NCBI GenBank assembly: GCA_018668595.1
Contig: JABJCP010000043.1
Coordinates: forward strand, 36,490-100,489
Length of the DNA stretch: 64,000 nt
Source: Candidatus Woesearchaeota archaeon
Lineage (GTDB): Archaea; Nanobdellota; Nanobdellia; Woesearchaeales; UBA11576
Reading direction: 5' to 3'
Part shown: positions 2,785-38,403 of the stretch, one piece after another
Layout of the letters: each line of letters begins with the position of its first letter
Position numbering within the stretch: position 1 is the stretch's first letter
Translations under genes and position numbers: made by a program
The notes under the pieces: model-generated
Databases searched by the model: none
What the model saw: only the letters and a program-made list of their open reading frames with translations
What the model was told of the DNA's origin: nothing

Positions 2785-4440
2785 ATGAAATTAATTAGTG
2801 TTAAAAATGCAGAAGAAATTGCAGAAGATGGTTGTTCTACTTCAGGATACGAAACAGCTTATGGAGATTATATAAGATTATTTCCACCAGGCAGTCCAAG
2901 AGGAACATTTAATCACATATCAACAGAGGAATTTATTCACAAAACAGTTCCTTTATTTCTAGATGTTCCTTATACTGATATTAATTTCAAGAAAATAAAG
3001 GCAGGAAATCTTAAAAGTAAAATAATAAAATCTGCTGAGAAAAAATTTAAGTGCAAAGATCCATTTGGTGATAATGGAGGACATGAACAATACGAACACG
3101 AAGATTTCTTAACAGAAGGATTAAGAGTAGTTAGAAAATATTTACTTGATCTGGAATTAGATAAAGAAGATATTTTAAACAAATTAATAAGAAACTCCTT
3201 TTCAAATACTGAAGAAATAAATTCAATTGAGAAAACATTTATGGATATGATTGAAAAAGATCTTTTCAAAGTAGACCGTACATGCCACAGTTATGAAACA
3301 TCTGATTCTGTAAACACATCTTGTACTAAAGTCTTGAATTCTCTTGATGAATTTGTTAAAAAATTTATTAAATCAAATAATAATCAATTTGCATTCAAAG
3401 ATTTGCTTTTTAATCAGTTTATTCCTTCTTTTTCAGAATATGGTTCTGTAGCAAGGGGAAATAAAAGCTTAAATCAAATTGCAAATGAAAATGGTTTAGA
3501 TAAATTTGATATAAATAGAACAGAATTTTTTGGTAAAATTTTCTCATCAATTTTAACTACAAATTACACTGAAGAATTAAATCAAAATTTTGAATCTAAA
3601 TTTTCTGAATGGGTAAGAGGTCAATATGGTTTTTGTATCAAAGTCGATGAGCAAGACTACAATCCTGAAAAAATATCTAATTTTGTTATAAACACAAGTG
3701 AAGAAGATATTGAAAAATTAAAAGCAGAAATTGGTAAAGGGTATTTATTTCGCGGAAATATTCAATGGTCCAGTATTATTAGATTTAAAGATGTTCTTAC
3801 TCACGAAACAGTTAGCGACGAAAGGAAAAATAATTTCATAAAAGAAATAGAACGTCCACTAAAATTATTAGAATTGAATCTTATTTTTAGAGATCTTACA
3901 AAAATGTTTAAAGAAGAAAAAAATCCTTTTAAAAAAATTGAAATCTCAAAAAGAAATACAACTGATAAAAATTATATTGAAAACCGCATAATATCAATTG
4001 AACAAGCAGCAGAGTTAAGTTTTGAAGCGCTACTTGAACTAAGACATACTAGAAATTTTGGAATTGGCAATAACCTAATCAATAGAGAACATCCTGGTGC
4101 TTTAGATATTTGTCTAAATTGTTTCGATAGAGTAATGCAAGAATACACTGATTTATATAATGAAAATTCTCAAACCAGTCATTGTACTGCTAAGACGCAC
4201 AACATTGCAAAAATTGTAACATCTCGTGAAAAAATACGCGCTAAGCATATGATTCTTATTGCAAGCGATTTACTTGCAAAAAACAGAAATCAAGAAAATT
4301 TATATTCATCAAAAGAAGCATACACTATTTTATTAGAACAACAAAAAGAAATGAGTTCTTTATCTGGTTCTGTTGAGTATGTAAAAAAATTGACAAAATT
4401 AGTTAGTAAAATTGAAAAAAAGTATTTGAATAAAAGATAA
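2785..4440 (+). CDS. Hypothetical protein (551 aa), no recognisable domain
   Basis: Long uninterrupted ORF. A GGGGG Shine-Dalgarno-like element lies about 8 nt upstream. Divergent from PCNA. Confidence 0.5.
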   Translation: MKLISVKNAEEIAEDGCSTSGYETAYGDYIRLFPPGSPRGTFNHISTEEFIHKTVPLFLDVPYTDINFKKIKAGNLKSKIIKSAEKKFKCKDPFGDNGGHEQYEHEDFLTEGLRVVRKYLLDLELDKEDILNKLIRNSFSNTEEINSIEKTFMDMIEKDLFKVDRTCHSYETSDSVNTSCTKVLNSLDEFVKKFIKSNNNQFAFKDLLFNQFIPSFSEYGSVARGNKSLNQIANENGLDKFDINRTEFFGKIFSSILTTNYTEELNQNFESKFSEWVRGQYGFCIKVDEQDYNPEKISNFVINTSEEDIEKLKAEIGKGYLFRGNIQWSSIIRFKDVLTHETVSDERKNNFIKEIERPLKLLELNLIFRDLTKMFKEEKNPFKKIEISKRNTTDKNYIENRIISIEQAAELSFEALLELRHTRNFGIGNNLINREHPGALDICLNCFDRVMQEYTDLYNENSQTSHCTAKTHNIAKIVTSREKIRAKHMILIASDLLAKNRNQENLYSSKEAYTILLEQQKEMSSLSGSVEYVKKLTKLVSKIEKKYLNKR

Positions 4441-8910: not shown

Positions 8911-9348
8911 TCAATCAAAATAATCTTCATAACTAAACCCAGACCCTCCCCTGCCAAATTTTCTTCCCTCATAAGGACAGGATCCTTTATCTTCAATTAA
9001 ATTTCCATCTAAAAATTCCCTATACTTTGCAACAAGAGAACAGCAATCACTACAGCGTCTAAAATCAGTCCCGATTTCAACTTCATATTCTCGATCATTA
9101 ATTTTTACAAGTTTAGATGGAACACTGCTATTTTGACTAAATAGTTTGTGAATGTTTTCAACAAATCTAAAATCAGTTATTGCTTGAGAAATAGAAATAT
9201 TCAGTTTACATTTTTTTGGTGCTTTAACAGACACAACTTCCTTAAGAACTTTAATACATCTTTGAGCTTCCAACCTATTTCTATTCTGTGAATTCTTTTT
9301 AGCAACATTGTCAGGTAATTTTATACTTCCGTCAGGATTAAATTCCAT
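8911..9348 (-). CDS. Hypothetical Cys-containing protein
   Basis: 145-aa ORF with a C-terminal CSDCC...C cluster. Confidence 0.35.
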   Translation of the reverse strand: MEFNPDGSIKLPDNVAKKNSQNRNRLEAQRCIKVLKEVVSVKAPKKCKLNISISQAITDFRFVENIHKLFSQNSSVPSKLVKINDREYEVEIGTDFRRCSDCCSLVAKYREFLDGNLIEDKGSCPYEGRKFGRGGSGFSYEDYFD

Positions 9349-11519: not shown

Positions 11520-12713
11520 ATGACAAACACACGCAATAGTCCATTCATTTCAATATCACCTACTACATTTATAAAAAAACAACAATTACCTACAATCATG
11601 ACATCTCAAAATTCATTTGCAGATCTTGGGCTAAAAAAAGAATTATTAGTAATCTTAAAGCGATTGAAATTCAAAAATCCTTTAGAGGTTCAAACTAGTG
11701 TTATTCCCTGCGCAAAACAAGGGAAAAATATTGTTTTAACTTCTCAAACAGGTAGTGGGAAAACTCTCGCATATTCATTAGGTTTTATTGATAAAATCAA
11801 CAAAAAACTTGGAATTCAAATGATTATTTTACTTCCAACTAGAGAACTTGCAATTCAGGTTGGAAAAGAAATTAAAAAAATTTGTGATCCTTTAAACCTA
11901 AACACAGGCGTAATTTACGGTGGTCGGGATATTGGAGGAGATCATAAAACTCTAAAAAAGAAGCTCCACATTCTTATTGGTACTCCTGGTAGAATTGTTC
12001 AACATGTTAATGAAAAAAATATTAAAGTTGGAGACACTAAACTCATTGTTTATGATGAGAGTGATCAAATGTTTGATCATGGTTTTGCACGCGAGTGCGC
12101 TTACATGAAAACTCGAATCAGTAAAAACGCGCAAATTATTCTTGCTTCTGCTACAATGACTGATAAAGTTAAAGAGTTCATAGACCACATCATTCCTGAT
12201 TATGAAATAGTTGATCTAGGCATTAGAGTTCCTAAAAATATTGTTCAAGAAAAAGTTTTTTGTGAAAAATTAGAAAAAAATGATTTAATTATGACTCTGT
12301 TCAATAAAACTGGATTCAAACGTGCTCTTATTTTTTGCAATACTAAAATTAAATCATATAATATTGCGGATTTTTTTCAAAATAAAAAATTAAATGCTAA
12401 ATCATTAAACAGCGACCTTGATCAAAATCAACGTATTCAGCATTTAAATTTGTTCAAAGAAGGAAAAATTAAAATACTTGTTACCACAGATATTGCAGCA
12501 CGTGGTTTGGACATAAAAAATGTCGATATTGTAATAAATTACGACGTGCCTACGCGAGATGAATTTTATATTCATAGAGTTGGAAGAACTGGAAGACTCG
12601 ATAAAAAAGGTTATGCTCTAACTCTTATATGTCCTGAAGATATAGACCGTTTTGATAATATTGAATTTGACTATGAACTTAAAGTAAAAGAAATAAAAAA
12701 AGAAGGAATATAA
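11520..12713 (+). CDS. DEAD-box (DESD variant) ATP-dependent RNA helicase
   Basis: Q-motif region, Walker A TSQTGSGKTLAY, DESD box (VYDESDQ), SAT, and HRVGRTGR motif VI. Confidence 0.85.
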   Translation: MTNTRNSPFISISPTTFIKKQQLPTIMTSQNSFADLGLKKELLVILKRLKFKNPLEVQTSVIPCAKQGKNIVLTSQTGSGKTLAYSLGFIDKINKKLGIQMIILLPTRELAIQVGKEIKKICDPLNLNTGVIYGGRDIGGDHKTLKKKLHILIGTPGRIVQHVNEKNIKVGDTKLIVYDESDQMFDHGFARECAYMKTRISKNAQIILASATMTDKVKEFIDHIIPDYEIVDLGIRVPKNIVQEKVFCEKLEKNDLIMTLFNKTGFKRALIFCNTKIKSYNIADFFQNKKLNAKSLNSDLDQNQRIQHLNLFKEGKIKILVTTDIAARGLDIKNVDIVINYDVPTRDEFYIHRVGRTGRLDKKGYALTLICPEDIDRFDNIEFDYELKVKEIKKEGI

Positions 12714-12759
12714 ATAAATATAAAATTAATAAAAAAGGAATAGAAAAAAGAGAATTAAA

Positions 12760-13158
12760 ATGATTAAACTTCCAGATAAATTACAAGAAGAACAAGATCA
12801 AATAAAAAATGAATGGGATAAAGTTGAAAATACTTGGAAAGATTACACCAATGAACTAATTCCTCAAGATATTATTTTTGCAAAAAAGATAATTCAATTC
12901 TCAATTAATGTTCTTAATCACATAATAGATAATTATGACGATAATAAAGAAGAAATGAAACAACTTCAAGAATTTATTGCATATTACCCTATTAATTTTT
13001 TCTATGGTCCTATGGGTGATGATTATAATTATCTTGACTTTGACGAAGGTTCGCTTTATTGGATTTTGTTTAAGCTTAGACCTGATGAACTTGTTCCAAA
13101 ATCTAGTTTTGAAGAAGCAAAAGATGCTGCAAAAAACTTATTAAAAGAATTTGATTAA
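12760..13158 (+). CDS. Hypothetical protein
   Basis: 132-aa ORF between the helicase and the PolB-like gene. Confidence 0.35.
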   Translation: MIKLPDKLQEEQDQIKNEWDKVENTWKDYTNELIPQDIIFAKKIIQFSINVLNHIIDNYDDNKEEMKQLQEFIAYYPINFFYGPMGDDYNYLDFDEGSLYWILFKLRPDELVPKSSFEEAKDAAKNLLKEFD

Positions 13159-13179
13159 AAAAAACACAAAAATAACAAA

Positions 13180-15975
13180 TTATAATTCTAATTTGTTTTC
13201 TAAACTTCTCTTAATATTCACTAAACTTATAATTTTATCTACAACAGAGCAATCTCCTTGATAAAGTTTATTAAGTAAATAATGTCCAGCACTATTTTTT
13301 TTAAAACCACAAAAATAATTTACCAATTTATGAATTGTTCCTTCTCTAATTGATGGACGATCGACTTTTTCGAGATTAAATTCAAATAATTCTCCAGAAC
13401 ATTTATTTTTTTCTTGAGCTTTACGCGATTTATCATATGCTTTAAATTTTTTTAGTAATTGTTTATTTTCATTAGTTACAATACCAAAAAATTTTTCCAT
13501 CATCGCTTCTAAATTATATTCATAACTAATTAAATCTCCTTTTTTTATTTGTTGCTCAGCCATTATTGAAATATATCTTTGTCGTGCGCCTAAAGCATAT
13601 TTATCATAATCTTTTCTTGCTTCTCGTTCATAAGTTAATTCTTCTCGTCGAATTTTTCCTAAACGCAACTGGTTCGCTTTTTTTGCCACATATTCAAGTC
13701 CTACGCGCAAATCACCTTTTAATACAACTTTATCTAAAAAAGATTCATATAATCCTTTTTCAAACTTGCATCGTTCTCCTTTATTAGAATTGTAATCTGC
13801 AATTCCTTGCATCACGAATTGATTTCCTATATTTCCTGCAAAACTTCCTTTATTACCTGACAAAAATACTCCTTCACCTACCACAGAACATAAACCTTTT
13901 GATTCTAGACGACACAATAAATTTTTATCAACATTATCTGATAAAATAAAAGCTTCTTGATTTATATTAATAACATTTCCTTTAAGTAATTTTATTAAAT
14001 CATTCATAACACTAGTAGCCTTACATCTATATTCATCTAAATAATCTCCCTGCATACCTAAACTAAATTCTGCTGCGAATGTTTTTTTACCAATATTTGG
14101 TTTTGCTAATCTAAAAAGCGGATATTCTGCAATTGATTCAAGAGTTCTCATCAATCTTGCTTTTTCTTTAGGATCTCCAGTTAAGAAAGCTTGATTATAT
14201 ATCTTTTTAATATTGTCATCTCGTTCAAGCATATCTTTAAATATACTTGCAAAGGGAAATAGTTCAACCCATACTCCTTTTCTCACTCCTTTTTTTGCGT
14301 CGAGGTTTACATATTTTTTAATCCTTGCAGTAAAATAATCAATCGAGCAAAAATCATCAAAAGTTATTTCATTTTTCTTTGTTCCTAATCCTTTTCTAAC
14401 TTGATCACCCAATCGAATTTTAAGTGAAATTATTTCATCCTTAGGGTATGTATTTTTGTGATCCCAATACCAATTAACCCAATAATCTTCACATAATGTT
14501 TTTTTTGCGGTTGTATCTATTCTTGCAGGTGATGAATGTAATGCTTTTGATTTTAAAATATGTTCATACTTAAGTTGTTCACCAATCATCCAAGATTTCA
14601 TCGAATCTTGTGCTGCATAATATAAAACTTGAAACGCTGCTTCTTTATTTCCTTTTTCTGCCAATGCTGTTTGCACTACAAGTTCGTCATGTGTTAAAGT
14701 TTTTTTAGATTTAATTCCCAGCACATCTTCTAATACAGTGTCTAATTTATTATTGAAATTTTTCATGTAATGTTGAGAATAAGGAGATGGATCAATATCT
14801 AATCTACCTTTCAAAATTATTCGTTTAATAAATCCTCCTGCTGCTTGCACTTCAAGTAATGGCTTAGTTCCTCCCACTCCCACTTTAAAATTCCCAGTAA
14901 GACTTTCGGCTTTATCGTAATCGAATTTTAATTGATTATGCCCATAACAAAAAACAGGTTCTATTTCAGAATATAATGCATTTAATTTCTCGACCAACTC
15001 ATGTTGATCGCAAACATGAATTATTTTAACTTTACGTTTATCAGTATCATCACCAGGAACTGCTACTTCTATTTCATTCATTCCACAATCAAGAGTTGTG
15101 ATTAAAAAATTTTCACCGCTATCTAAACTAATCACTGATGCAGCAGTTAGTCTTTCATTTTTGTTTTTATCAAGAATTTCTTCTATTCCTCTTAGATAAT
15201 CTCTTCTATCCATCCACTTTAAATTTTCTTTATTAAATGTTTCATTGTATGCATCGACTAAATTCAAAAATCTAGAACATAATTTTTCCTCAGGTTCATC
15301 ACGTAATTCTTCTTGTACTCTAACACGTTTCCATTCTTGTGTTTCAAAATCAAGTGCTACACCTTTTACATTTACTAAAATTTTATCAGAAATTAATTCA
15401 TTAGTGAATTCAAAACCGCCATCTCCATCTTCAATCTCTTTTACAATACCAAATGGAAATCCTGCTTGTAATCTTGCTTGTCTTGTTGGACTATTATATC
15501 TATCTCGAATAAATTCTTGTGAAAGAAAAAAGTTTTGTTCATTTTTTTCTAAAAATGGCACTACACAGTGATATGTTTTATACTTTCCTCGTCCAAAAGG
15601 TCCATCTAAGCGCAAGCGCACATCAATGTTTCGCAAAAAATTGTCAATAGCTGTTGATTTTTCTTTTAATTCAGAATGTTTTTTTGTGCCTTCATTAAGC
15701 TTTCCCAGGTCTACTAATGTTTTAAATAATTCTTCTGTATATTGTTCTTGAATAATTTTTTTATAATTTTCAAAACTTTCAAATATTGTTTCTTCTCGTC
15801 TATGTTTTAGTAGCTTGGTAGGAATTTTGTGTTCTATTTTAATTAATTCAAATTTAGGATTTTTCATTTCTCCTGTTTCAGAATCTATTTCCCACAGACA
15901 TGCGTCTACAAGAGATTCTAGTCTTCCTACTAGTGACTGTTTTGGTTTAAGAAATGTCAACCCCTTAGTTACCAT
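13180..15975 (-). CDS. Family-B DNA polymerase-like protein with intact 3'-5' exonuclease motifs and degenerate or absent polymerase motifs
   Basis: 931 aa. Exo I LDFET, Exo II NQLKFDYD (YGHNxxxFD) and Exo III YYAAQD are present in PolB order and spacing. No SLYPS (motif A), no KxxxNSxYG (motif B) and no YGDTDS (motif C) could be found. The only loose candidates are FDDFCSIDYF and ILSDNVD. Confidence 0.55.
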   Translation of the reverse strand: MVTKGLTFLKPKQSLVGRLESLVDACLWEIDSETGEMKNPKFELIKIEHKIPTKLLKHRREETIFESFENYKKIIQEQYTEELFKTLVDLGKLNEGTKKHSELKEKSTAIDNFLRNIDVRLRLDGPFGRGKYKTYHCVVPFLEKNEQNFFLSQEFIRDRYNSPTRQARLQAGFPFGIVKEIEDGDGGFEFTNELISDKILVNVKGVALDFETQEWKRVRVQEELRDEPEEKLCSRFLNLVDAYNETFNKENLKWMDRRDYLRGIEEILDKNKNERLTAASVISLDSGENFLITTLDCGMNEIEVAVPGDDTDKRKVKIIHVCDQHELVEKLNALYSEIEPVFCYGHNQLKFDYDKAESLTGNFKVGVGGTKPLLEVQAAGGFIKRIILKGRLDIDPSPYSQHYMKNFNNKLDTVLEDVLGIKSKKTLTHDELVVQTALAEKGNKEAAFQVLYYAAQDSMKSWMIGEQLKYEHILKSKALHSSPARIDTTAKKTLCEDYWVNWYWDHKNTYPKDEIISLKIRLGDQVRKGLGTKKNEITFDDFCSIDYFTARIKKYVNLDAKKGVRKGVWVELFPFASIFKDMLERDDNIKKIYNQAFLTGDPKEKARLMRTLESIAEYPLFRLAKPNIGKKTFAAEFSLGMQGDYLDEYRCKATSVMNDLIKLLKGNVININQEAFILSDNVDKNLLCRLESKGLCSVVGEGVFLSGNKGSFAGNIGNQFVMQGIADYNSNKGERCKFEKGLYESFLDKVVLKGDLRVGLEYVAKKANQLRLGKIRREELTYEREARKDYDKYALGARQRYISIMAEQQIKKGDLISYEYNLEAMMEKFFGIVTNENKQLLKKFKAYDKSRKAQEKNKCSGELFEFNLEKVDRPSIREGTIHKLVNYFCGFKKNSAGHYLLNKLYQGDCSVVDKIISLVNIKRSLENKLEL

Positions 15976-16000
15976 TTTAAAGTAGGTAAAGACGCAAAGA

Positions 16001-16008
16001 TTTATAAA
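16001..16008. promoter_or_regulatory. Palindromic TATA box TTTATAAA shared by divergent genes
   Basis: Sits about 26 nt upstream of the minus-strand ATG at 15975 (leaderless geometry) and about 69 nt upstream of the plus-strand ATG at 16070 (leader carrying a GGGGG RBS). Confidence 0.4.
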
Positions 16009-16069
16009 CTTATGTGAATTATAATTAATTATAAAAAAAATAAAATGTATAACTTAAGGGGGCGCGTAA

Positions 16070-18535
16070 ATGCAAGAAATTCCACCACACGAAAAAATAT
16101 CTCATTTTTTCCAAAATTTGTATCTTGCAGAGCCATTTCTTTCAGATTATGAATTGTTTGATTCTAATTTATTAATAAAAAAATTAAAAGAAAAAAATGG
16201 ATTATCGGGTCTTTCTACTAAATCCAAAACTAATCCTATGGAAATATTAGAGCAAGGATTTGAAAAAATAAAAAAAGGAAAAGGATTTGGTTCAATTGAA
16301 AAATATAGATGGTATAATAATTACATGTTAAAAGAAATCAGTTTGCCAGATGTTTACAATCCATTTTACGATAAAATCCCTATTTTTGTAAATGGTCTTT
16401 GTGTTACTCAACATAATAAACCAAGAAAAGAAGGAATGGATCCTTATTCTAATACACACAGATTTTCAACATTACTAATTCAAAGCCTAGAACAGTTATT
16501 CCCTCCTGATTTTTTAGAACGATTTTTATTTGTATATGTACAACCAGTTCCTTTTGTTCAAAAAATAACAAAACACAAAGGAAAATTATGTTTAGAAGAT
16601 ATTATCAGACATCCAATAGAACATCATGTTAATAAAAATTTAGCTGAAAAAAAGAAACAAGGCTTTGGTACTTTAATAAAATCAGACGATTCGTCATACA
16701 AAATTGCTAATGCGCATTATGATCCAAAACTTTTTAATTTTAATATGTTTAAAATAGCAAATGCTCAAAATCCTGACTCGAAAACTAGAGAAGCTATGAA
16801 AAGTGGACGATCATTCAACAAATTTTTAGAAATTAAACAAAATGAAATTTATTTCAACAAACAAATAATGGCAATCAAATTTGCTAGATTTCTCGACGCT
16901 ATTTATCCTAATTTAATTAAACTTCATAATGAAATAGGGTTAAATGGTCTACCTATTTATATGGAAAATACTTCTGACAGTGCAAAAATATTGCAATACG
17001 CAACAAAATATTCAAAAACACATATTCTTAATTGTAAGGATAAACCTAATGATAAAACTTCTTTAAGATATTTTAATATAGGTGATGGAATTCTCAATAA
17101 TACTCCTGAACGTATTCCTATTGAAGGAATTGCACACAGCAGCGCGCTCAATAAATTATTTGGTTTTATGCAGGCAATATATTCGAATGTATCAAAAAAT
17201 TATAAACGAAAATCTGTAAAAATAAAAAAACCTGCTAGATTTGAAGTTATAACCTATGATTCAGGTCATCAATTCCCTTGGCTTCTTTTAGAACAAGGTA
17301 CAAAAGGTAAACATCCTAATCTTCATGATTTAGCCAGACAAGTTCTGACAACTCAAGAGCAAAAATTAATTAAAGATTTTGCAGAAGAAAATAGATTAGG
17401 ATTTACTAGAGTAGAACCTGCAATCACCACTCTTTTAAAAACTGATTATTCAATCAATATAAGTCATCCTGCACTTTCAAAATTAAATGGTCGATGGTTT
17501 TCAGAAATTCTTGGGAAAAAAGTTTTAACTCCTGATAAACTACATAGTCCTGATTACAAAATTAATTTTTTTGATATGCCGTCTGTACATCCCGCAGATC
17601 ATAAAGTAACTAGTGACTTTAGAGGTTCTGAATTTTCTCAACCTACTTGCGAATATATAAGCCAAGACTGGCACAACCCAGATCAACTTACAGGTTTTGG
17701 TTGTTCAATTACTAAACTCATAGGTAAGATTGATAGAAATGTGAAAAAGAAACTTATTTTAGAGCAACTAGCACAAGAACCTGAAGAAGTAAGAGATGAA
17801 TTTTTCAAAAATATGACTCCCGATCTAGAATCTATTCCTGCAATTAGAGGTACTGCAATCCATACTTTATTTGCGCATCCAATGAATGAATTAGTTCATT
17901 ATAATACATTAGAATTTGCAGACATTGATCCAGTTCCTTCAGATGTATACACAGAAACAACTTTTTTTCATAAACTAAAATTACAAGCTAGAAATTCAAT
18001 TCAAGAATTTACAGTTTCTATGCATCCTGATTTATATCTGTTTCTAAAAAGAGGCACCGATGAATATGATTTAATTATTGGCGATGTGAAAACTAATCCT
18101 AGAATGGTTGTTCCCGAACATAAATATACTCAGCAAACTGGTTTTTATGGTTGGTTTATTAAACACATTGTAGAAGAAGAGTTAAGAGTTAAAATTCACA
18201 ATATTTATACATTTTTATACAAAACCAATTTTTTTGAGCGTGGCGACGAGCCACAAATAAAATATCCTTCATCATTATTTCGCCCACCAGTTCTTTCAAA
18301 AATAATATTGCATAAACCTGATGATTCAATAATCCAAACCTTGCCTTACATGTTAGCAAACATAATGGAAGAAAAACAAATGTTAAAAGAAGATAAAAAG
18401 TTTTTTGGGCATTATATTAAACATTGTGAAAAAAAGAAATATTGTAAAAAATGTTTTCCTGATTCTAGTCTTGTTTGCAAAAGATTAAGAAATTTAGAAA
18501 GTGAAAATAAAAATATAAATAAATATTTTAATTAA
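16070..18535 (+). CDS. Large hypothetical protein with C-terminal RecB/Cas4-like PD-(D/E)xK nuclease domain and terminal 4-Cys cluster
   Basis: 821 aa. C-terminal HPDLY ... GDVKT ... EHKYTQQTGFY matches the PD, (D/E)xK and QxxxY motifs of RecB-family nucleases. Ends with CEKKKYCKKCFPDSSLVC (C-x5-C-x2-C-x8-C). No Walker motifs. Confidence 0.55.
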   Translation: MQEIPPHEKISHFFQNLYLAEPFLSDYELFDSNLLIKKLKEKNGLSGLSTKSKTNPMEILEQGFEKIKKGKGFGSIEKYRWYNNYMLKEISLPDVYNPFYDKIPIFVNGLCVTQHNKPRKEGMDPYSNTHRFSTLLIQSLEQLFPPDFLERFLFVYVQPVPFVQKITKHKGKLCLEDIIRHPIEHHVNKNLAEKKKQGFGTLIKSDDSSYKIANAHYDPKLFNFNMFKIANAQNPDSKTREAMKSGRSFNKFLEIKQNEIYFNKQIMAIKFARFLDAIYPNLIKLHNEIGLNGLPIYMENTSDSAKILQYATKYSKTHILNCKDKPNDKTSLRYFNIGDGILNNTPERIPIEGIAHSSALNKLFGFMQAIYSNVSKNYKRKSVKIKKPARFEVITYDSGHQFPWLLLEQGTKGKHPNLHDLARQVLTTQEQKLIKDFAEENRLGFTRVEPAITTLLKTDYSINISHPALSKLNGRWFSEILGKKVLTPDKLHSPDYKINFFDMPSVHPADHKVTSDFRGSEFSQPTCEYISQDWHNPDQLTGFGCSITKLIGKIDRNVKKKLILEQLAQEPEEVRDEFFKNMTPDLESIPAIRGTAIHTLFAHPMNELVHYNTLEFADIDPVPSDVYTETTFFHKLKLQARNSIQEFTVSMHPDLYLFLKRGTDEYDLIIGDVKTNPRMVVPEHKYTQQTGFYGWFIKHIVEEELRVKIHNIYTFLYKTNFFERGDEPQIKYPSSLFRPPVLSKIILHKPDDSIIQTLPYMLANIMEEKQMLKEDKKFFGHYIKHCEKKKYCKKCFPDSSLVCKRLRNLESENKNINKYFN

Positions 18536-30330: not shown

Positions 30331-31695
30331 ATGGATGAAAAAAACGAGGTGCAATTAGACTCTATTGAATCTAATTTATTAGCCGAGCTTGAAAAAAAGA
30401 GCAGTGAACTTTCTCAAAACAATTCATTCTTAGCAGAAAAACTCAAAGAAACAGAATGTACTATTTCTTCATTCAATACTGAACTTGCAAAACTTAAAAA
30501 TGTTAAAGACGCGTTAACCCAAAAAGATATTATTATTACAAAATTAAATAAGAAAATAGAAATTATGTCTTATGCGCAAAAACAACTCGAGTTTGATGCT
30601 CTTGATTTAAATGAACAGGTAACAAAAAAATCAGAATCACTTGATTTTTCTGAATCAAAACTTGTTGAGCGTAATAAAATTATTGAAGACCTAAAGAGCA
30701 AAATTAGTATTCTTTCGTTTGCACAAAAACAACTTGAATCTGAAGTTCTTGATATAAAATCTCAATTAGATAAATCTGTTGCAAATCTTGAGTTTAATAA
30801 AGATGAAATTGTAAACAAAGAATTGGAAGTTACTGAACTTAGCGGACAAATAAAGCACCAATCAGATGCAATTAATCGACTAGAGTCTGAAAGTGCACAT
30901 TTTAGAAATCATGTTGAATTATTAACATCTAAATTACATATTAAAGAAGAGGATTTTAATAAATTTGCTGATGATCTTGCAGAGTCTAGAAAAAAAGTTG
31001 CTTTACTAAATACTACATTAATAAAAAAATCTCAGGAGTTTGAAGCAAAAGAAACAAATTTAACTCAAACATTAAATCAAACAAAAGAAAATCAAGAAGT
31101 TTATGTTAAACGGTTAATTTCTCAATACACTTTAAAAATTATTTCTCTTAAAAATCAGATGGAAAAAATGGACAAACTAATATCTATTAAAAATGGAACT
31201 ATTCAAAATCAAAAAGTTAAAGCTAATAACATAATGTCTGATTTGAATTCTAGGTTCAAAGATCTGATGAGTTCCGAAGATGCAGCAACACTTAATGGAT
31301 TTGAATCTGAAATTACCAGTTCTGATTCTAATGATTTTGAATATGAACTAGATTCAGACTCAATAAATAGTTCAGACGTAAAAGAAGACTCAATACCTGC
31401 CGCAAACTTAGACACAAACAGCAGTTCATTTGATTCGTTTAAACAAGAACTAGTATATGAAGATCAGTCAGAAGAAGCAGCAGTGGAAGAAGAAGAATTA
31501 CTTGTTGATCCATACCAAGAAATTCAAGATCCTTATTCATCTGCTCCAATGCCAAACATTGACGATATTGTACCTATGATTCAAATTGCAATCCAACATG
31601 GAGATCAAGAAATGAGCATAGTTAAGTCTTTAACTAATTCAGGTATTCCAAAAAAAGCAGTTGATTTAGCATTCGAAAAAATAAGACAAGAATAA
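30331..31695 (+). CDS. Long coiled-coil protein with acidic C-terminus
   Basis: Heptad-rich Q/E/K/L composition across about 300 aa, acidic S/D/E tail. 454 aa. Confidence 0.45.
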   Translation: MDEKNEVQLDSIESNLLAELEKKSSELSQNNSFLAEKLKETECTISSFNTELAKLKNVKDALTQKDIIITKLNKKIEIMSYAQKQLEFDALDLNEQVTKKSESLDFSESKLVERNKIIEDLKSKISILSFAQKQLESEVLDIKSQLDKSVANLEFNKDEIVNKELEVTELSGQIKHQSDAINRLESESAHFRNHVELLTSKLHIKEEDFNKFADDLAESRKKVALLNTTLIKKSQEFEAKETNLTQTLNQTKENQEVYVKRLISQYTLKIISLKNQMEKMDKLISIKNGTIQNQKVKANNIMSDLNSRFKDLMSSEDAATLNGFESEITSSDSNDFEYELDSDSINSSDVKEDSIPAANLDTNSSSFDSFKQELVYEDQSEEAAVEEEELLVDPYQEIQDPYSSAPMPNIDDIVPMIQIAIQHGDQEMSIVKSLTNSGIPKKAVDLAFEKIRQE

Positions 31696-35308: not shown

Positions 35309-37021
35309 TTATGCTGGTTTACCTACCATAGATCCCATTGAACCTGTTGATTCTGATTGGCTTTCGCTCTCTGAACTTGCAGGTAATGTCACGGTTGTTG
35401 AACTAGTTTTTTTTGTTTTTTGTTTTGCACACCAAACATAATCTTTTTTACTATCATCATTATCTTTAGGTCGTACATCTAATTTGTATTCTTTTTGAGT
35501 TCCATATTCATATTCTATTTCTGCTAAAATTAAAACATCATTAGGTTCGTTAGGAAGACGTAAAACTTTTTTTGGATCTAAAATTTCTAAGTGACAAGAA
35601 GGCATTGATTTTTGAAGAGTATGTTCTAATTCATAAAATTCATATTTTTCAGGATTATTCAAATACAACACATTTCTTCCATTTTCTTCTTTTGCAGTCC
35701 ATCCTGAACAAAAATCAACTTGTACACCCCCTATCTGATTAGGTTTTGCAACACCAAATCCGTCTGGAATTACAACTTTTAGTGCATGTACTGTATCTAC
35801 TGTTCCTTCGACCATGTTTTCTACACTTACTTGTATTTTTAATTTTTTAGATGCTATTTGATTATTTTGAGATCCAATACCTCCAAAGCTTCCTGTTCCT
35901 GTATCAATTCCTATTAAAGGCATTTTTTCTGTTTGTATTATTAATTTAATTGGAGCTTTATCTGATTCAGATATTCCGTCGAGGTGCGCCACTTCAGGAT
36001 ACATATCTTTCAATGCTGCAATTACTTCATTTTCATTATCTAAAGTTAATTCTTTATCTCGAGCATATACTTTGAGTTTTTCTTCTAAAAAGTTTTTTTC
36101 AATATATGCATTTTGTAATTCTGCTCTTGTTACAAATCCTTCTGATAGTGCAGTAAAATATACTAAATATGCTTCTGGACAAGTAATATTTTGAGGATAG
36201 CAAGTTATTTCTTCGTCAAAATTTGATGCTGCAGTTATTACTTCAGGAAATACAGGTGAAACTGTTGCGTCGTCTAATCTTTGAAAAGTTCCTGGTGATT
36301 TTTTAAAAATTGATCTTCTAACCACGTGACAAGTAACCATCGTTACTATATCTTCATCATATCCAAATCCATGAACTCTTGATCTAAACTCGATAGATTC
36401 GCGAGAATCAATATCTATAGGAGAGGGTATAAAATATTTTGCGGGATTTGGTGTCCAAGGATTTAACCATTCAACTCCTACAAATTCTTTTGTTTTTGTT
36501 TGTTTTCCTTCAACATAATCTCCTTTGTATATTTGTTCATTTTTTTTCCAACTGAGTTTAAAATTATCAATTAATTTTGATAAAGCGTTTTTACCCCCAT
36601 ACGTTACATCATCTGCTGCAGCTCCAACATCTCCTCCTTGATATTTTGCAATTGCAGCCTGTGCAATTGTAGGGCCTGTAAAATAAAATGCTAATCCGAA
36701 TATTGCAATAATAATTAATGCTTTGAAAAATACACCCATCCAATCTTTAGGACTTTTTTGATCTGGTGAAGGTTCTTCTATAACTACTTTAGGTTCGGGT
36801 TGGGATGATTGAGTAGAATTAATTGGTTCAGCAGAAAATGGCGATTGTTGAACTGGTTGTTGAACTGGTTGTTGAGGATTTGGTTGTTGAAAAGAATTAC
36901 CTAAATTAATAGATCCTTGTGAATTTACAGAGGGATTAATGTTAGGAGAAAGAGGGTTTATTGGAGCTAATCCTTTCTTCCCTAAATTATTAAACTTAAT
37001 ATCATCCACCTCTTTTTTCAA
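35309..37021 (-). CDS. Type-II membrane protein with Q/P-rich cytoplasmic N-terminus and large ectodomain
   Basis: QQPVQQPVQQ low-complexity region, then a single TM (ALIIIAIFGLAFYF), then about 450 aa of extracytoplasmic domain with an S/E/T-rich tail. Confidence 0.5.
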   Translation of the reverse strand: MKKEVDDIKFNNLGKKGLAPINPLSPNINPSVNSQGSINLGNSFQQPNPQQPVQQPVQQSPFSAEPINSTQSSQPEPKVVIEEPSPDQKSPKDWMGVFFKALIIIAIFGLAFYFTGPTIAQAAIAKYQGGDVGAAADDVTYGGKNALSKLIDNFKLSWKKNEQIYKGDYVEGKQTKTKEFVGVEWLNPWTPNPAKYFIPSPIDIDSRESIEFRSRVHGFGYDEDIVTMVTCHVVRRSIFKKSPGTFQRLDDATVSPVFPEVITAASNFDEEITCYPQNITCPEAYLVYFTALSEGFVTRAELQNAYIEKNFLEEKLKVYARDKELTLDNENEVIAALKDMYPEVAHLDGISESDKAPIKLIIQTEKMPLIGIDTGTGSFGGIGSQNNQIASKKLKIQVSVENMVEGTVDTVHALKVVIPDGFGVAKPNQIGGVQVDFCSGWTAKEENGRNVLYLNNPEKYEFYELEHTLQKSMPSCHLEILDPKKVLRLPNEPNDVLILAEIEYEYGTQKEYKLDVRPKDNDDSKKDYVWCAKQKTKKTSSTTVTLPASSESESQSESTGSMGSMVGKPA

Positions 37022-37152: not shown

Positions 37153-38403
37153 TCAATTATCTCTATATACTTCTAATTCAACAATTTGCAATATTTCGTC
37201 AGGAATTATTTTTATCGCATTATTTCCTTCAATTAAATAATCATTGATCTTCTTTTTGTAAACTCTATCTCTTTGATATATATTTGTTTCAACACCATTA
37301 ATATTTATTCTACCTTCTTTTTGTTCATTGTCATCAACAAATGTTATTTTTAGATATATATCATCAGAATCATCTTCAACATCATCAAATTCATCTTCGT
37401 CAAGATCAAAAAAGTATACTGGCTGTACAATTTCTTTTAGTTCACTCTTGATTTTTATTAGCTCGACTATGTAATTTCCTTTTTCTGTTTTAAATACTAT
37501 TTGATTTTCACCATTACGCAAAATATCTGGTGCAAACTCTACACCCAATGCATATCCACAATCAGGTATTGCTTCATAAACTAAATGATTATTTACTAGT
37601 GCTTGTAATTTTCCAGTCACTCCTAATTCACACTGAGGTGTGAAAATTAATCGTCCTCTTTTTAGATTATTTTTTTCAGTTGCGCTAACAATAAATATGT
37701 TTTTGCTTTGTTGTTGAGTTATGTCTGTTATGTCTCCCGTGATTTGTAAATTTTCAAGTGTGTGTTTGTTTACTTTCCAAAACTGCCACCCAACTGATTC
37801 TGTAAAAAACTCTAATTTATTTGCTCCTTGAGCTACATATTTTTTTGGAACCACAACAGGATCTGGATTTTCTTTTGTAATTTCTTGATTAAATATATCT
37901 TTTCCATTTAGTGTTATTCGCATATTCCCCTCGTGTATTTTAGATACAAAGGTTAATAACAAATTTTCTGTATGGGTTAAATCTTGAATAACAAATGTGA
38001 ACTCAGCACTTGTATCTGAAAACCAACTTTTTTTAGCAGTCAAGCTGCTTTGAGTATCTAATACTTGAGCATCTTGTGTAGCAAATATTGTTAATGCAGG
38101 AATACTGTGAGTTATTTCTTTAGTTGACAATGAAGTTAATGTTCCTGGATTTTCAAGTAATAATGTTTTATTGGATCCTGAATCAGAATCTGAATCAGAA
38201 TCTGTTGAATTTCCTTCTAGAATTTCTTGCCTCACATGAGGTGGAATAAACAGTAAGTAAAATATGATCAACAGTGCAATTACTGCAACTAATGTTGCGG
38301 CTTTTGTTCCATCTTGTGCTTTTCTGCTTATTAAAAACATAGATTTAGATCTGCAATTAGATCTACAATTAGAATTTCCTGATTTTTTTATTCGTGCCAT
38401 CAA
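37153..38403 (-). CDS. Type-II membrane protein with DSDSDSDSGS linker and large ectodomain
   Basis: Basic N-terminus with an NCRSNCRS repeat, single TM (LVAVIALLIIFYLLF), acidic repeat, about 330-aa ectodomain. Confidence 0.5.
   Translation of the reverse strand: MMARIKKSGNSNCRSNCRSKSMFLISRKAQDGTKAATLVAVIALLIIFYLLFIPPHVRQEILEGNSTDSDSDSDSGSNKTLLLENPGTLTSLSTKEITHSIPALTIFATQDAQVLDTQSSLTAKKSWFSDTSAEFTFVIQDLTHTENLLLTFVSKIHEGNMRITLNGKDIFNQEITKENPDPVVVPKKYVAQGANKLEFFTESVGWQFWKVNKHTLENLQITGDITDITQQQSKNIFIVSATEKNNLKRGRLIFTPQCELGVTGKLQALVNNHLVYEAIPDCGYALGVEFAPDILRNGENQIVFKTEKGNYIVELIKIKSELKEIVQPVYFFDLDEDEFDDVEDDSDDIYLKITFVDDNEQKEGRININGVETNIYQRDRVYKKKINDYLIEGNNAIKIIPDEILQIVELEVYRDN

What the first reader, a model, noticed from the sequence alone, without database searches (positions are those of the whole stretch)
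11520..18535. Candidate nucleic-acid-processing module: DEAD(DESD) helicase, small ORF, and a divergent PolB-like exonuclease / nuclease-fusion gene pair
Four adjacent genes combine helicase, DEDDy exonuclease and PD-(D/E)xK nuclease activities. The last two are divergently transcribed from a 94-bp spacer and share one TATA element. The helicase-plus-nucleases composition is reminiscent of repair or defence islands. I cannot match the combination to any described system.
Basis: inference. Interest (0 to 1): 0.65.

Follow-up and report, generated by a model that had tools for sequence, protein, structure and literature searches.

The report
Linked pseudo-polymerase exonuclease and Cas4-like nuclease
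Two of the four flagged genes, a DNA-polymerase look-alike that keeps only its proofreading exonuclease and a Cas4-like iron-sulfur nuclease with a large unknown domain, always sit head-to-head around one shared promoter element in Woesearchaeota archaea and probably form an undescribed two-nuclease DNA-processing unit; the helicase and the small ORF are bystanders.

Summary
Only the two large genes form a unit.

- **g3** (13180-15975, minus strand, 931 aa) folds as a complete family-B DNA polymerase. Its DEDDy exonuclease residues are invariant. Polymerase motifs A, B and C have decayed.
- **g4** (16070-18535, plus strand, 821 aa) has an unassigned N-terminal domain of about 535 aa. Its C-terminal domain is a Cas4/RecB-type PD-(D/E)xK nuclease with four conserved cysteines.
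- **Linkage:** in every related locus with enough DNA to judge (17 distinct loci), the two homologues are adjacent and divergent, down to 27% identity. They co-diverge (r = 0.93).
- **Promoter:** usually 52-57 bp separate the start codons, around one central palindromic TATA octamer.
- **Distribution:** the family is small (94 clusters at 50% identity among 1.84 billion proteins). Named members are Woesearchaeota. It lies among housekeeping genes, was not found in viral contigs, matches no defence model and was not found in the literature searched.
- **Bystanders:** the DEAD-box RNA helicase and the 132-aa ORF are not conserved neighbours.

Best reading: a lineage-specific two-subunit nuclease that trims DNA ends or flaps in chromosome maintenance. 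This is inferred, not shown. A residual polymerase activity and a defence role remain possible.

The parts
13180..15975 (-). g3: 931-aa family-B DNA-polymerase homologue (pseudo-polymerase with an intact proofreading exonuclease)
   Evidence: The AF2 model has pLDDT 83.6 and pTM 0.83. Foldseek against the PDB gives full-length matches to archaeal PolBs at E about 1e-20 over about 910 columns, with 12-13% identity. No member hits Pfam DNA_pol_B.
14536..15378 (-). g3 exonuclease domain (about residues 200-480), with ExoI D209/E211, ExoII N347/F351/D352 and ExoIII Y453/D457
   Evidence: These residues are invariant in 17 of 17 sequences. This is the best-conserved part of the protein: mean pairwise column identity 0.46, against 0.32 for palm/fingers. 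Pfam PF03104 is hit in 3 of 11 members. hhalign and hmmsearch alignments to Pfu-type PolB and E. coli Pol II cover it.
13486..14535 (-). g3 polymerase-like half (palm, fingers, thumb; about residues 481-830) with decayed motifs A, B and C
   Evidence: hhalign against Pfu PolB (reference sequence validated). The motif A Asp aligns with D541, which is acidic in only 13 of 17 members (K, N, N, A otherwise). No KxxxNSxYG is present. The motif C hairpin reads NQE at 672-674, and position 674 is acidic in 12 of 16. Basic residues at positions expected to contact DNA are conserved: K605, R607, K709, K732, R735.
13183..13485 (-). g3 C-terminal tail (about residues 831-931), partly disordered; many relatives carry a Q-x-x-L-F short motif here, while the window has only GELFEF
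   Evidence: pLDDT is below 50 at residues 858-872.
15976..16069 (.). 94-bp divergent intergenic spacer
   Evidence: Sequence read. Spacers are 52-57 bp in most related loci.
16001..16008 (.). Palindromic TATA octamer TTTATAAA, 25 nt from the g3 ATG
   Evidence: The same octamer, or a variant with 1-2 mismatches, starts 24-25 nt from the g3 start in 10 of 12 distinct loci. In 8 of them it ends 19-25 nt from the g4 start. Precedent for one TATA box serving two divergent start sites 49-50 bp apart: PMC6640164.
16056..16062 (+). G-rich Shine-Dalgarno-like AAGGGGG, 7 nt before the g4 ATG
   Evidence: Sequence read. L021 has a similar AAAGGGGGAAG before its g4 ATG. The role is inferred.
16070..18535 (+). 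g4: 821-aa two-domain nuclease
   Evidence: The AF2 model has pLDDT 79. The family has 94 clusters among 1.84 billion representatives. It has no Pfam, NCBIfam, PADLOC or PHROG hit at E<=0.1.
16070..17674 (+). g4 N-terminal domain (about residues 1-535), alpha/beta, unassigned
   Evidence: No clear hit in PDB or BFVD fold searches. No sequence or profile hit in the PDB. No P-loop. No similarity to the C-terminal domain. Few family-wide conserved residues: E449, R518, S520, G336, L363, G365.
17675..18532 (+). g4 C-terminal Cas4/RecB-family PD-(D/E)xK nuclease domain with four cluster cysteines
   Evidence: C545, G594, H598, Y627, E629, D654, D672, K674, Q689, Y693, C792, C795 and C803 are at least 90% conserved in 58 sequences. 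Foldseek hits: Cas4-family ACE1 (prob 0.94), Cas4 SSO0001 (prob 0.89), AddB, AdnA, RecE, EXO5, and viral PD-(D/E)XK / Cas4-like / exonuclease VIII proteins. Pfam PDDEXK_1 is hit in 3 of 9 members and Exo5 in 1 of 9.
11520..12713 (+). g1: DEAD-box (DESD) RNA helicase; a neighbour, not part of the unit
   Evidence: It is not syntenic with the pair in related loci.
12760..13158 (+). g2: 132-aa ORF with no detectable relatives; a neighbour, not part of the unit

Best explanation
**The unit.** It is the divergent pair g3/g4, not four genes. This is shown by synteny.

**g3.** It is an exapted family-B DNA polymerase. The whole fold is kept, and so are the basic residues at positions where PolBs contact DNA. 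The 3'-5' proofreading exonuclease site is under strict selection. The polymerase catalytic and dNTP-binding motifs are relaxed or lost. It most likely binds a duplex end or primer-template junction and removes nucleotides from the 3' end.

**g4.** It joins a new 535-aa domain to a catalytically intact Cas4/RecB-type nuclease with a four-cysteine (4Fe-4S-type) site. Enzymes of this kind typically cut or degrade single-stranded DNA from the 5' side.

**Expression.** In most members both genes are driven from one central palindromic TATA box, with start codons 52-57 bp apart. That implies near-leaderless, co-ordinated expression.

**Proposed mechanism (inferred).** The two proteins act together, probably as a complex, as a helicase-less nuclease of two polarities. 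It would trim both strands at DNA ends, gaps or flaps during chromosomal repair or replication-linked processing in a subgroup of Woesearchaeota. A Q-x-x-L-F motif in many g3 tails hints at recruitment by a sliding clamp.

**Bystanders.** The DEAD-box helicase and the small ORF are unrelated neighbours.
For: **Linkage.**
- g4 and g3 homologues are adjacent and divergent in every related locus with enough flanking DNA (17 distinct loci). Loci were found from the g3 side and independently from the g4 side.
- They are the only genes shared by all loci.
- Pairwise identities of the two proteins correlate at r = 0.93, and 0 of 2000 Mantel permutations reach that value.

**g3.**
- It has a full-length PolB fold.
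- The DEDDy residues are invariant in 17 of 17 members, while the motif A and C positions vary and motif B is absent.
- No member hits Pfam DNA_pol_B.
- The exonuclease domain is the most conserved region.

**g4.**
- The nuclease triad, the QxxxY motif and four Cys are at least 90% conserved in 58 members.
- Fold hits go to Cas4, AddB, RecE and EXO5.

**Promoter.** The TATA octamer is position-conserved, and P. furiosus gives a precedent for a shared TATA (PMC6640164).

**Cellular rather than mobile or defensive context.**
- Flanks are housekeeping genes: EF-1alpha/eIF2-gamma, ribosomal proteins S10 and S6e, tRNA synthetases, PAN, peptidases.
- No tRNA genes and no terminal repeats flank the pair.
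- No relatives were found in IMG/VR viral contigs.
- g2, g3 and g4 have no PADLOC hits.

**Clamp-type motif.** Seen in the g3 tails.
Against: - No direct evidence that the two proteins touch. No co-fold could be run, and co-divergence is expected of any two vertically inherited genes.
- Acidic residues persist at the motif A and motif C positions in most members, including the window protein (D541, E674).
- Archaeal PolB2 was also predicted dead and later proved active (PMC8764526, PMC11791011).
- The motif mapping rests on a low-identity hhalign alignment (probability 61-87%) plus predicted secondary structure, not on a superposition.
- The polarity of the g4 nuclease is assumed from relatives.
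- The family is rare and confined to part of one lineage, so it is not a universal housekeeping function. Repair and anti-invader roles cannot be told apart from sequence.
- The N-terminal two-thirds of g4 is unexplained.
Confidence: 0.5

Rival explanations
1. g3 is still a working, atypical DNA polymerase, for example a repair or translesion enzyme, and g4 is its accessory nuclease subunit. This would resemble PolB2 with its partners PPB2 and iRadA.
For: - The full PolB fold is kept, with conserved fingers and thumb basic residues: K605, R607, K709, K732, R735.
- Acidic residues sit at the motif A position in 13 of 17 members and at motif C position 674 in 12 of 16.
- PolB2 is a precedent: it was predicted inactive and is in fact active (PMC8764526, PMC11791011).
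Against: - The putative catalytic positions are K, N or A in some members, and they differ between related members of one subclade (P0009 has D, L012 has N).
- The canonical motif B (KxxxNSxYG) and the SLYPS steric-gate motif are absent.
- No Pfam DNA_pol_B hit appears in any of 11 members.
- The polymerase half is less conserved than the exonuclease half.
Confidence: 0.2
2. The pair is an anti-virus or anti-plasmid defence system that degrades invading DNA with two nucleases.
For: - It combines two nucleases.
- Its distribution is narrow and the family is small.
- Cas4-family nucleases often serve defence. The best PDB fold hit is an Argonaute-associated Cas4-family protein.
Against: - g2, g3 and g4 have no PADLOC hits.
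- No known defence or mobile-element domains were seen among the neighbours that were scanned or carried precomputed Pfam calls, and the flanks are housekeeping genes.
- The proteins co-diverge steadily down to about 21-24% identity, which fits long vertical inheritance.
- No cas genes, sensor or ATPase component is present.
Confidence: 0.15
3. One reading: a four-gene module in which the DEAD-box helicase and the small ORF work with the two nucleases.
For: The genes are adjacent in the window. A DEAD-box helicase also lies three genes from the pair in L004.
Against: - The helicase is absent from the flanks of the pair in the other loci that were scanned with the g1 query.
- It is a typical RNA helicase of the CshA/DbpA/RhlE kind.
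- g2 has no relative anywhere that was examined.
- Only g3 and g4 are shared by all loci.
Confidence: 0.03
4. The pair is a domesticated remnant of a self-replicating mobile element such as a casposon or a virus, whose PolB and Cas4-like nuclease have lost their original roles and are decaying.
For: PolB together with a Cas4-like nuclease is a combination I recall from casposons and from viral replication modules (own knowledge, not tested here).
Against: - No Cas1, integrase, terminal repeats or tRNA target was seen.
- No relatives were found in IMG/VR.
- Purifying selection on both nuclease sites is strong across very divergent members, which argues for a current function.
Confidence: 0.07

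Closest known systems
Archaeal replicative family-B DNA polymerases (B3 type: Pfu, KOD, Tgo, 9N)
   Same: The overall fold matches from the N-terminal domain to the thumb (Foldseek E about 1e-20). ExoI-III are intact. The exonuclease, palm and thumb regions are colinear in hhalign.
   Different: Identity is only 12-13%. Motifs A, B and C are not conserved, and there is no Pfam DNA_pol_B hit. g3 has extra helical insertions at residues 61-115 and about 213-275, and a long tail. It is strictly paired with a nuclease gene.
Inactivated or 'inactivated-looking' PolBs: archaeal PolB2 (Dpo2), the C-terminal half of Pol epsilon, poxvirus F12
   Same: PolB-fold proteins with degenerate polymerase motifs that have been put to other uses. 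PolB2 also works with lineage-specific partners encoded next to it, PPB2 and iRadA (PMC11791011).
   Different: The pattern here is the reverse of PolB2. [quoted passage not shown] Here the exonuclease is invariant and the polymerase motifs decay. The partner here is a Cas4-like nuclease, not PPB2 or iRadA.
Cas4 / RecB-family PD-(D/E)xK nucleases with a 4Fe-4S cluster (Cas4 SSO0001, ACE1, the AddB nuclease domain, EXO5, Dna2 nuclease)
   Same: g4 has the D...D-x-K triad, the QxxxY motif, and one N-terminal plus three C-terminal cysteines (C-x2-C-x7-C). Its fold hits go to these proteins.
   Different: No CRISPR or Argonaute genes are nearby. The nuclease is fused to an unassigned 535-aa domain. 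g4 has no helicase or P-loop. Sequence similarity is marginal (Pfam PDDEXK_1 E 0.009 at best).
AddAB / AdnAB end-resection machines
   Same: They pair a nuclease that acts on the 3' strand with a RecB-type Fe-S nuclease that acts on the 5' strand, in two co-encoded subunits. This is a functional analogy only.
   Different: No SF1 helicase motor is present in either protein. The 3'-5' activity here comes from a PolB exonuclease domain rather than a second RecB-type domain. The Foldseek matches to AddB and AdnA are weak.
Archaeal bidirectional promoters that share one TATA box (Pyrococcus furiosus)
   Same: A symmetric TATA element lies midway between two divergent start points about 50 bp apart (PMC6640164). 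Here the start codons are 52-57 bp apart around TTTATAAA.
   Different: In P. furiosus the second transcript is mostly non-functional antisense RNA. Here both directions lead into conserved protein genes, and the arrangement is kept across very divergent genomes. No transcript data exist for these organisms.

Membership tests
Family-B DNA polymerase (as a fold superfamily) | Overall N-terminal / exonuclease / palm / fingers / thumb architecture | tested here: met
   AF2 model with pTM 0.83. Foldseek against the PDB gives 219 hits at E<=1e-3; the best are archaeal PolBs at E about 1e-20 over about 910 columns.
Family-B DNA polymerase (as a fold superfamily) | ExoI (DxE), ExoII (Nx3FD) and ExoIII (Yx3D) motifs | tested here: met
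   D209/E211, N347/F351/D352 and Y453/D457 are invariant in 17 of 17 members.
Family-B DNA polymerase (as an active polymerase) | Motif A DxxSLYPS with an invariant catalytic Asp | tested here: not met
   The aligned position 541 reads D/E in 13 of 17 members and K, N, N or A in the rest. SLYPS is absent.
Family-B DNA polymerase (as an active polymerase) | Motif B KxxxNSxYG in the fingers | tested here: not met
   The motif is not present. Only a conserved basic helix is found (K605, R607, R/K610).
Family-B DNA polymerase (as an active polymerase) | Motif C (Y)xDTD(S) | tested here: not met
   The hairpin at 668-679 reads VININQEAFILS. Positions 672-674 vary (NQE, KQG, HDG, SKD, SDR and others).
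Family-B DNA polymerase (as an active polymerase) | Match to Pfam DNA_pol_B (PF00136) | tested here: not met
   No hit at E<=1 in any of 11 members.
Archaeal PolB2 (inactivated-looking group) | ExoI not conserved, ExoIII missing, and a group-specific D(K/R) motif (PMC7544198) | tested here: not met
   The exonuclease motifs are all invariant here. The definition was read. The D(K/R) motif itself was not examined.
Cas4 / RecB-family Fe-S PD-(D/E)xK nuclease | Catalytic D ... (D/E)xK plus QxxxY | tested here: met
   D654, D672-x-K674, Q689 and Y693, plus E629, are at least 90% conserved in 58 members.
Cas4 / RecB-family Fe-S PD-(D/E)xK nuclease | Four cluster cysteines: one upstream and CxxCx(5-7)C downstream | tested here: met
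   C545 and C792-x2-C795-x7-C803 are each present in 53 of 58 members. Actual cluster binding cannot be tested with these tools.
Cas4 / RecB-family Fe-S PD-(D/E)xK nuclease | Fold similarity to solved members | tested here: inconclusive
   The top PDB hits are ACE1 (E 6e-3, prob 0.94), SSO0001 Cas4 (prob 0.89), AddB, RecE and EXO5, but no hit reaches E<=1e-3 with the whole-protein query. BFVD gives 8 hits at E<=1e-3; most are named PD-(D/E)XK proteins, one is named a helicase and one has no name.
CRISPR-associated Cas4 | Encoded within a cas operon (cas1, cas2) | tested here: not met
   No cas gene was seen among the neighbours in the window or in the related loci.
AddAB / RecBCD-type helicase-nuclease | SF1 helicase motor with Walker A | tested here: not met
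   g3 and g4 have no P-loop and no helicase-domain hit.
Known anti-phage defence systems (PADLOC-DB 2.0) | Match of a component to a defence-system model | tested here: not met
   g2, g3 and g4 have no hit at E<=0.1. Only g1 gives the generic helicase matches expected of any SF2 helicase.
DEAD-box RNA helicase (g1) | DEAD and Helicase_C domains with motifs I (GSGKT), Ia (PTRELA), II (DExD), III (SAT) and VI (HRxGRxGR) | tested here: met
   Motif II is DESD.

The most novel reading that the evidence does not exclude
The pair is a stand-alone, clamp-recruited editing and flap-processing machine. An exapted PolB no longer synthesises DNA. It docks on primer-template junctions and proofreads 3' ends made by another polymerase in trans. 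Its obligate partner supplies a Dna2/Cas4-like 5' nuclease through a new 535-aa domain. Together they would be a previously unknown kind of replisome accessory, or a helicase-less end-resection complex, in DPANN archaea, expressed from a single shared TATA box.
Probability: 0.15. Interest if true: 0.8.

Novelty: new variant of a known kind. Interest (0 to 1): 0.55.

Why it matters
**A new pattern of polymerase exaptation.** Inactivated polymerases reused for other jobs are known (PolB2, the C-terminal half of Pol epsilon, poxvirus F12). Among the precedents I compared here, I did not find one that keeps the proofreading exonuclease under strict selection while the polymerase site decays and that is locked to a Cas4-like Fe-S nuclease.

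**If the two proteins work together.** They would define a new way of building a DNA-end or flap-processing enzyme in genome-reduced DPANN archaea. They would also give a function to a 535-aa domain with no known relatives.

**A test case for archaeal promoters.** The position-conserved palindromic TATA between two protein genes is a clean natural example of functional bidirectional initiation in archaea.

Tried and rejected

**Searches that found nothing**
- Sequence and profile searches of g4 against the PDB found nothing.
- Pfam scans of distant g4-family members found nothing beyond a weak DUF2800 hit.
- hhalign of the g4 N-domain against its C-domain showed no internal duplication.
- A profile search with the g3 alignment found no new relatives and no bridge to canonical PolBs.
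- No relatives of either protein were found in IMG/VR.
- The accession of one g3 relative (RLE45733.1) does not appear in the held supplements of the PolB survey PMC7544198. Whether that survey saw this family is unknown.

**Ideas tested and not supported**
- Descent from the bacterial Pol II-like / archaeal B7 group. This was suggested by single-sequence hits to E. coli Pol II and by the QLxLF motif. hhalign aligns Pol II only over the exonuclease domain (probability 49%), whereas Pfu-type PolB aligns over 460 columns (probability 87%). The ancestry is left open.
- A conserved third gene. The small ORFs next to the pair in different loci are not alignable. The metallophosphoesterases near the pair in the window and in L001 are not orthologous. 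All-against-all clustering of neighbours finds only g3 and g4 in all loci.
- A mobile element. There are no tRNA genes and only chance AT-rich repeats.

Full report
**1. What is in the sequence**

The window is about 28% G+C. Its genes are archaeal: a proteasome-activating AAA ATPase, an archaeal-type MCM with an intein, and both PheRS subunits. Named relatives of the genes of interest are all Candidatus Woesearchaeota, a DPANN lineage.

- g1 at 11520-12713 (+), 397 aa
- g2 at 12760-13158 (+), 132 aa
- g3 at 13180-15975 (-), 931 aa
- g4 at 16070-18535 (+), 821 aa

A 94-bp spacer (15976-16069) separates the start codons of g3 and g4.

**2. The helicase and the small ORF**

g1 has Pfam DEAD (E 5e-42) and Helicase_C (E 5e-29) domains. 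It matches NCBIfam models for CshA, DbpA, RhlE, SrmB and similar RNA helicases at E 1e-91 to 1e-67. Its motifs are GSGKT, PTRELA, DESD, SAT and HRVGRTGR. It is an ordinary DEAD-box RNA helicase. Its PADLOC matches are the generic ones that any SF2 helicase gives.

g2 has no hit in Pfam, NCBIfam, PADLOC or PHROGs. No related locus holds a relative of it.

**3. g3 is a full-length PolB homologue that keeps only the exonuclease site**

By sequence alone g3 is barely recognisable:
- Pfam DNA_pol_B_exo1 at E 9e-4
- E. coli Pol II at E 0.035
- a family profile against Thermococcales PolB at E 0.002, with separate weak segments in the exonuclease and thumb domains

The AF2 model, built on an 11-sequence alignment, is confident (pLDDT 83.6, pTM 0.83). 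It matches solved archaeal PolBs over about 910 columns at E about 1e-20.

I aligned the family to Pfu PolB with hhalign. The alignment is colinear from ExoII to the thumb.

In a 17-sequence alignment the exonuclease residues are invariant: D209, E211, N347, F351, D352, Y453 and D457. The polymerase motifs are not:
- The position aligned to the motif A aspartate (D541) is K, N, N or A in four members. SLYPS is absent.
- There is no KxxxNSxYG.
- The predicted motif C hairpin (residues 668-679) reads VININQEAFILS, and the DTD positions vary (NQE, KQG, HDG, SKD, SDR and others).

None of 11 members hits Pfam DNA_pol_B, even at E<=1. Mean pairwise column identity is 0.46 in the exonuclease domain, 0.32 in palm/fingers and 0.37 in the thumb.

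Basic residues at positions where PolBs contact DNA are conserved: K605, R607, K709, K732 and R735. This fits a DNA-binding scaffold.

One caution: most members, including the window protein, still have acidic residues at both putative metal-ligand positions. PolB2 was also once called inactive (PMC8764526, PMC11791011). I therefore put the probability that g3 does not polymerise at roughly 70-75%.

**4. g4 is a new domain fused to a Cas4/RecB-type Fe-S nuclease**

g4 has no hit in any HMM library and none in PDB sequences. An exhaustive profile search of 1.84 billion cluster representatives found only 94 proteins at E<=1e-3, of which 48 are at E<=1e-30.

In 58 full-length members (17-41% identity to the window protein), the residues conserved in at least 90% are:
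- C545, G594, H598, Y627, E629, D654, D672, K674, Q689, Y693, Y713, C792, C795 and C803
- and, in the N-terminal part, only G336, L363, G365, E449, R518 and S520

The C-terminal set is the signature of RecB/Cas4-family nucleases with a four-cysteine cluster.

The AF2 model (pLDDT 79) gives its best PDB matches to:
- the Cas4-family protein ACE1 (prob 0.94)
- Cas4 SSO0001 (prob 0.89)
- AddB, AdnA, RecE and EXO5

Its best BFVD matches are mostly viral PD-(D/E)XK, Cas4-like and exonuclease VIII proteins. Pfam PDDEXK_1 appears weakly in 3 of 9 members and Exo5 in 1 of 9.

Residues 1-535 remain unassigned:
- no clear fold hit
- no P-loop
- no similarity to the C-terminal domain
- no Pfam hit in distant members that align only to this part

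**5. The pair is a strictly conserved unit; the other two genes are not part of it**

Loci were collected in three ways:
- contig look-ups of g3 homologues
- a scan of GTDB species-representative genomes with the g3 alignment
- an independent metagenome scan with the g4 alignment

I screened all of them by tblastn with the four window proteins.

Every locus with enough DNA on the relevant side has the partner immediately adjacent and divergent. That is 17 distinct loci. The remaining loci lack the partner side: L011 (a 1.9-kb contig) and L022 end at a contig edge. L013 is cut at a contig edge and by a run of N, but partial homologues of both genes are still found there by tblastn.

Linkage holds down to 26-27% identity. 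An all-against-all comparison of every ORF of at least 70 aa in 19 sequences (the window plus 18 distinct loci) finds g3 and g4 as the only families common to all, each in 18 of the 19. The next families are translation GTPases (6 loci), ribosomal protein S6e (5) and a ParA/MinD-like ATPase (4).

The pairwise identity matrices of g3 and g4 correlate at r = 0.93, and 0 of 2000 Mantel permutations reach that value. The two genes have therefore been inherited together without partner swapping.

A DEAD-box helicase lies near the pair only in the window and, three genes away, in L004. With one or two such helicases per genome this is compatible with chance.

**6. The promoter**

With start codons placed by alignment to the family N-termini, 8 of 12 distinct spacers are 52-57 bp long. 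For L001 this uses the gene start called.

In 10 of the 12 a TATA-like octamer starts 24-25 nt from the g3 ATG. It is TTTATAAA in 6 loci and TTTATATA, TTTTTAAA or TTTAAAAC in the others. In 8 of the 12 it ends 19-25 nt from the g4 start. TTTATAAA is its own reverse complement.

In P. furiosus, divergent transcription start sites 49-50 bp apart were shown, including in vitro, to use one TATA box flanked by two BREs (PMC6640164). The geometry here matches that model, with near-leaderless mRNAs in both directions. This is an inference; no transcript data exist for these organisms.

In the window the octamer is at 16001-16008, 25 nt from the g3 ATG. The g4 side is 61 nt long and contains a second TATA-like TTATAAAA (16029-16036) and an AAGGGGG run (16056-16062). 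L021 is similar. In this genome g4 may therefore have acquired a leader or its own promoter.

**7. Context**

Neighbours in the window are:
- an MFS transporter and a metallophosphoesterase
- an Lrp/AsnC regulator
- a PhzF-family protein and a GNAT acetyltransferase
- the PAN ATPase
- M29 and M24 peptidases

In other loci they include EF-1alpha, S10, eIF2-gamma, S6e, tRNA synthetases and biosynthetic enzymes.

There is no tRNA gene in the 64-kb window. Repeats around the pair are only AT-rich chance matches. I saw no integrase or cas gene. Neither protein has relatives in IMG/VR. This is a chromosomal, vertically inherited, lineage-restricted gene pair, not a visible mobile element or defence island.

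**8. Mechanism**

*Shown:*
- linkage of the two genes
- their co-divergence
- the PolB fold of g3
- the differing conservation of the exonuclease site and the polymerase site
- the nuclease and cysteine signatures of g4
- the position-conserved TATA

*Inferred:*
- g3 binds a DNA end or junction and acts as a 3'-5' exonuclease.
- g4 cuts single-stranded DNA from the 5' side.
- The two act as one complex that trims both strands at ends, gaps or flaps.

The proposed complex is functionally comparable to the two nuclease activities of AddAB, but without a motor. It can also be compared to pairing a proofreading exonuclease with a Dna2-like flap nuclease.

Many g3 tails carry Q-x-x-L-F in a disordered stretch or at the very C-terminus: QLGLF, QLSLF, QLDLF, QMRLF, QMNLF, QYGLF and QSDLF. 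E. coli Pol II ends in the same QLGLF pentapeptide, and QLxLF is the beta-clamp-binding consensus described in PMC11791011. This hints at clamp recruitment. The window protein has only GELFEF, and archaeal PCNA normally binds QxxLxxFF, so the motif remains a lead.

**9. Comparison and novelty**

By fold and exonuclease motifs g3 belongs to the PolB superfamily, but it fails every test for an active polymerase.

Its pattern is the reverse of PolB2. [quoted passage not shown]

The C-terminal domain of g4 meets the sequence definition of Cas4/RecB-family Fe-S nucleases, but it is not CRISPR-associated.

Six full-text searches found no description of this pair or of either family. The PolB survey notes only the B7 and B9 groups in Woesearchaeota.

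I rate it a new variant of known kinds: an exapted PolB plus a Cas4-like nuclease, in a new and strictly conserved combination, with an unknown 535-aa domain and a neat shared-TATA arrangement.

**10. Verdict**

- **Observation:** confirmed.
- **Interpretation:** partly supported. It is a two-gene unit, not four, and nothing indicates defence.
- **Interest:** 0.55. The pair is real, undescribed and mechanistically suggestive. However, it is confined to one uncultured lineage, and its function rests on inference.

Noticed in passing
window 57523-60873 (+): The MCM replicative helicase gene (1116 aa) is interrupted by an intein with a LAGLIDADG homing-endonuclease domain. The Pfam Intein_splicing match spans residues 392-826 and LAGLIDADG_3 spans residues 612-691.
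   Followed up: no
g3-family C-terminal tails; window 13183-13485 (-); e.g. P0002 residue 969, P0004 residue 1055, P0010 and P0005 C-termini: Many g3 relatives carry Q-x-x-L-F (QLGLF, QLSLF, QLDLF, QMRLF) in a disordered tail. E. coli Pol II ends in the same QLGLF pentapeptide, and QLxLF is the bacterial beta-clamp-binding consensus. This is odd for an archaeal protein. The window protein has only GELFEF. hhalign does not favour a Pol II-like ancestry overall.
   Followed up: partly
window 16029-16062: Unlike most relatives, which have 52-57-bp spacers, the window has 61 nt between the conserved TATA and the g4 ATG. That stretch holds a second TATA-like TTATAAAA (16029-16036) and an AAGGGGG run (16056-16062). 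L021 has a similar G-run before g4. This suggests a switch from leaderless to leadered g4 expression in some genomes.
   Followed up: partly
window 42436-44454 (-), 35309-37021 (-), 2785-4440 (+), 30331-31695 (+), 37153-38403 (-): Five large ORFs (672, 570, 551, 454 and 416 aa) have no Pfam match at E<=1e-5. The window holds several sizeable proteins with no family assignment.
   Followed up: no
L011, L012, L014, L017 (GTDB representative MAGs): Four MAGs that carry the pair are titled 'uncultured Methanosarcinales archaeon', while all other named carriers are Woesearchaeota. This is probably placeholder or wrong taxonomy in the records.
   Followed up: no
window 8911-9348 (-): A 145-aa ORF with several cysteines (including CSDCCS) has no Pfam hit. 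It lies between an Lrp/AsnC-type regulator gene and a metallophosphoesterase gene.
   Followed up: no
g3 residues 61-115 and about 213-275 (window about 15631-15795 and 15151-15339, minus strand): g3 has two helical insertions relative to canonical PolBs. One is a long helical hairpin in the N-terminal domain, which gives weak spectrin-repeat hits. The other is about 70 aa long and lies between ExoI and ExoII. Both are candidate partner-binding surfaces.
   Followed up: no
L003 13469-16157 (+): In the clade with the longest g3 proteins (1151-1222 aa), two further co-directional ORFs of 537 and 357 aa with no Pfam hit follow g3 directly. They are not found in the other clades.
   Followed up: no
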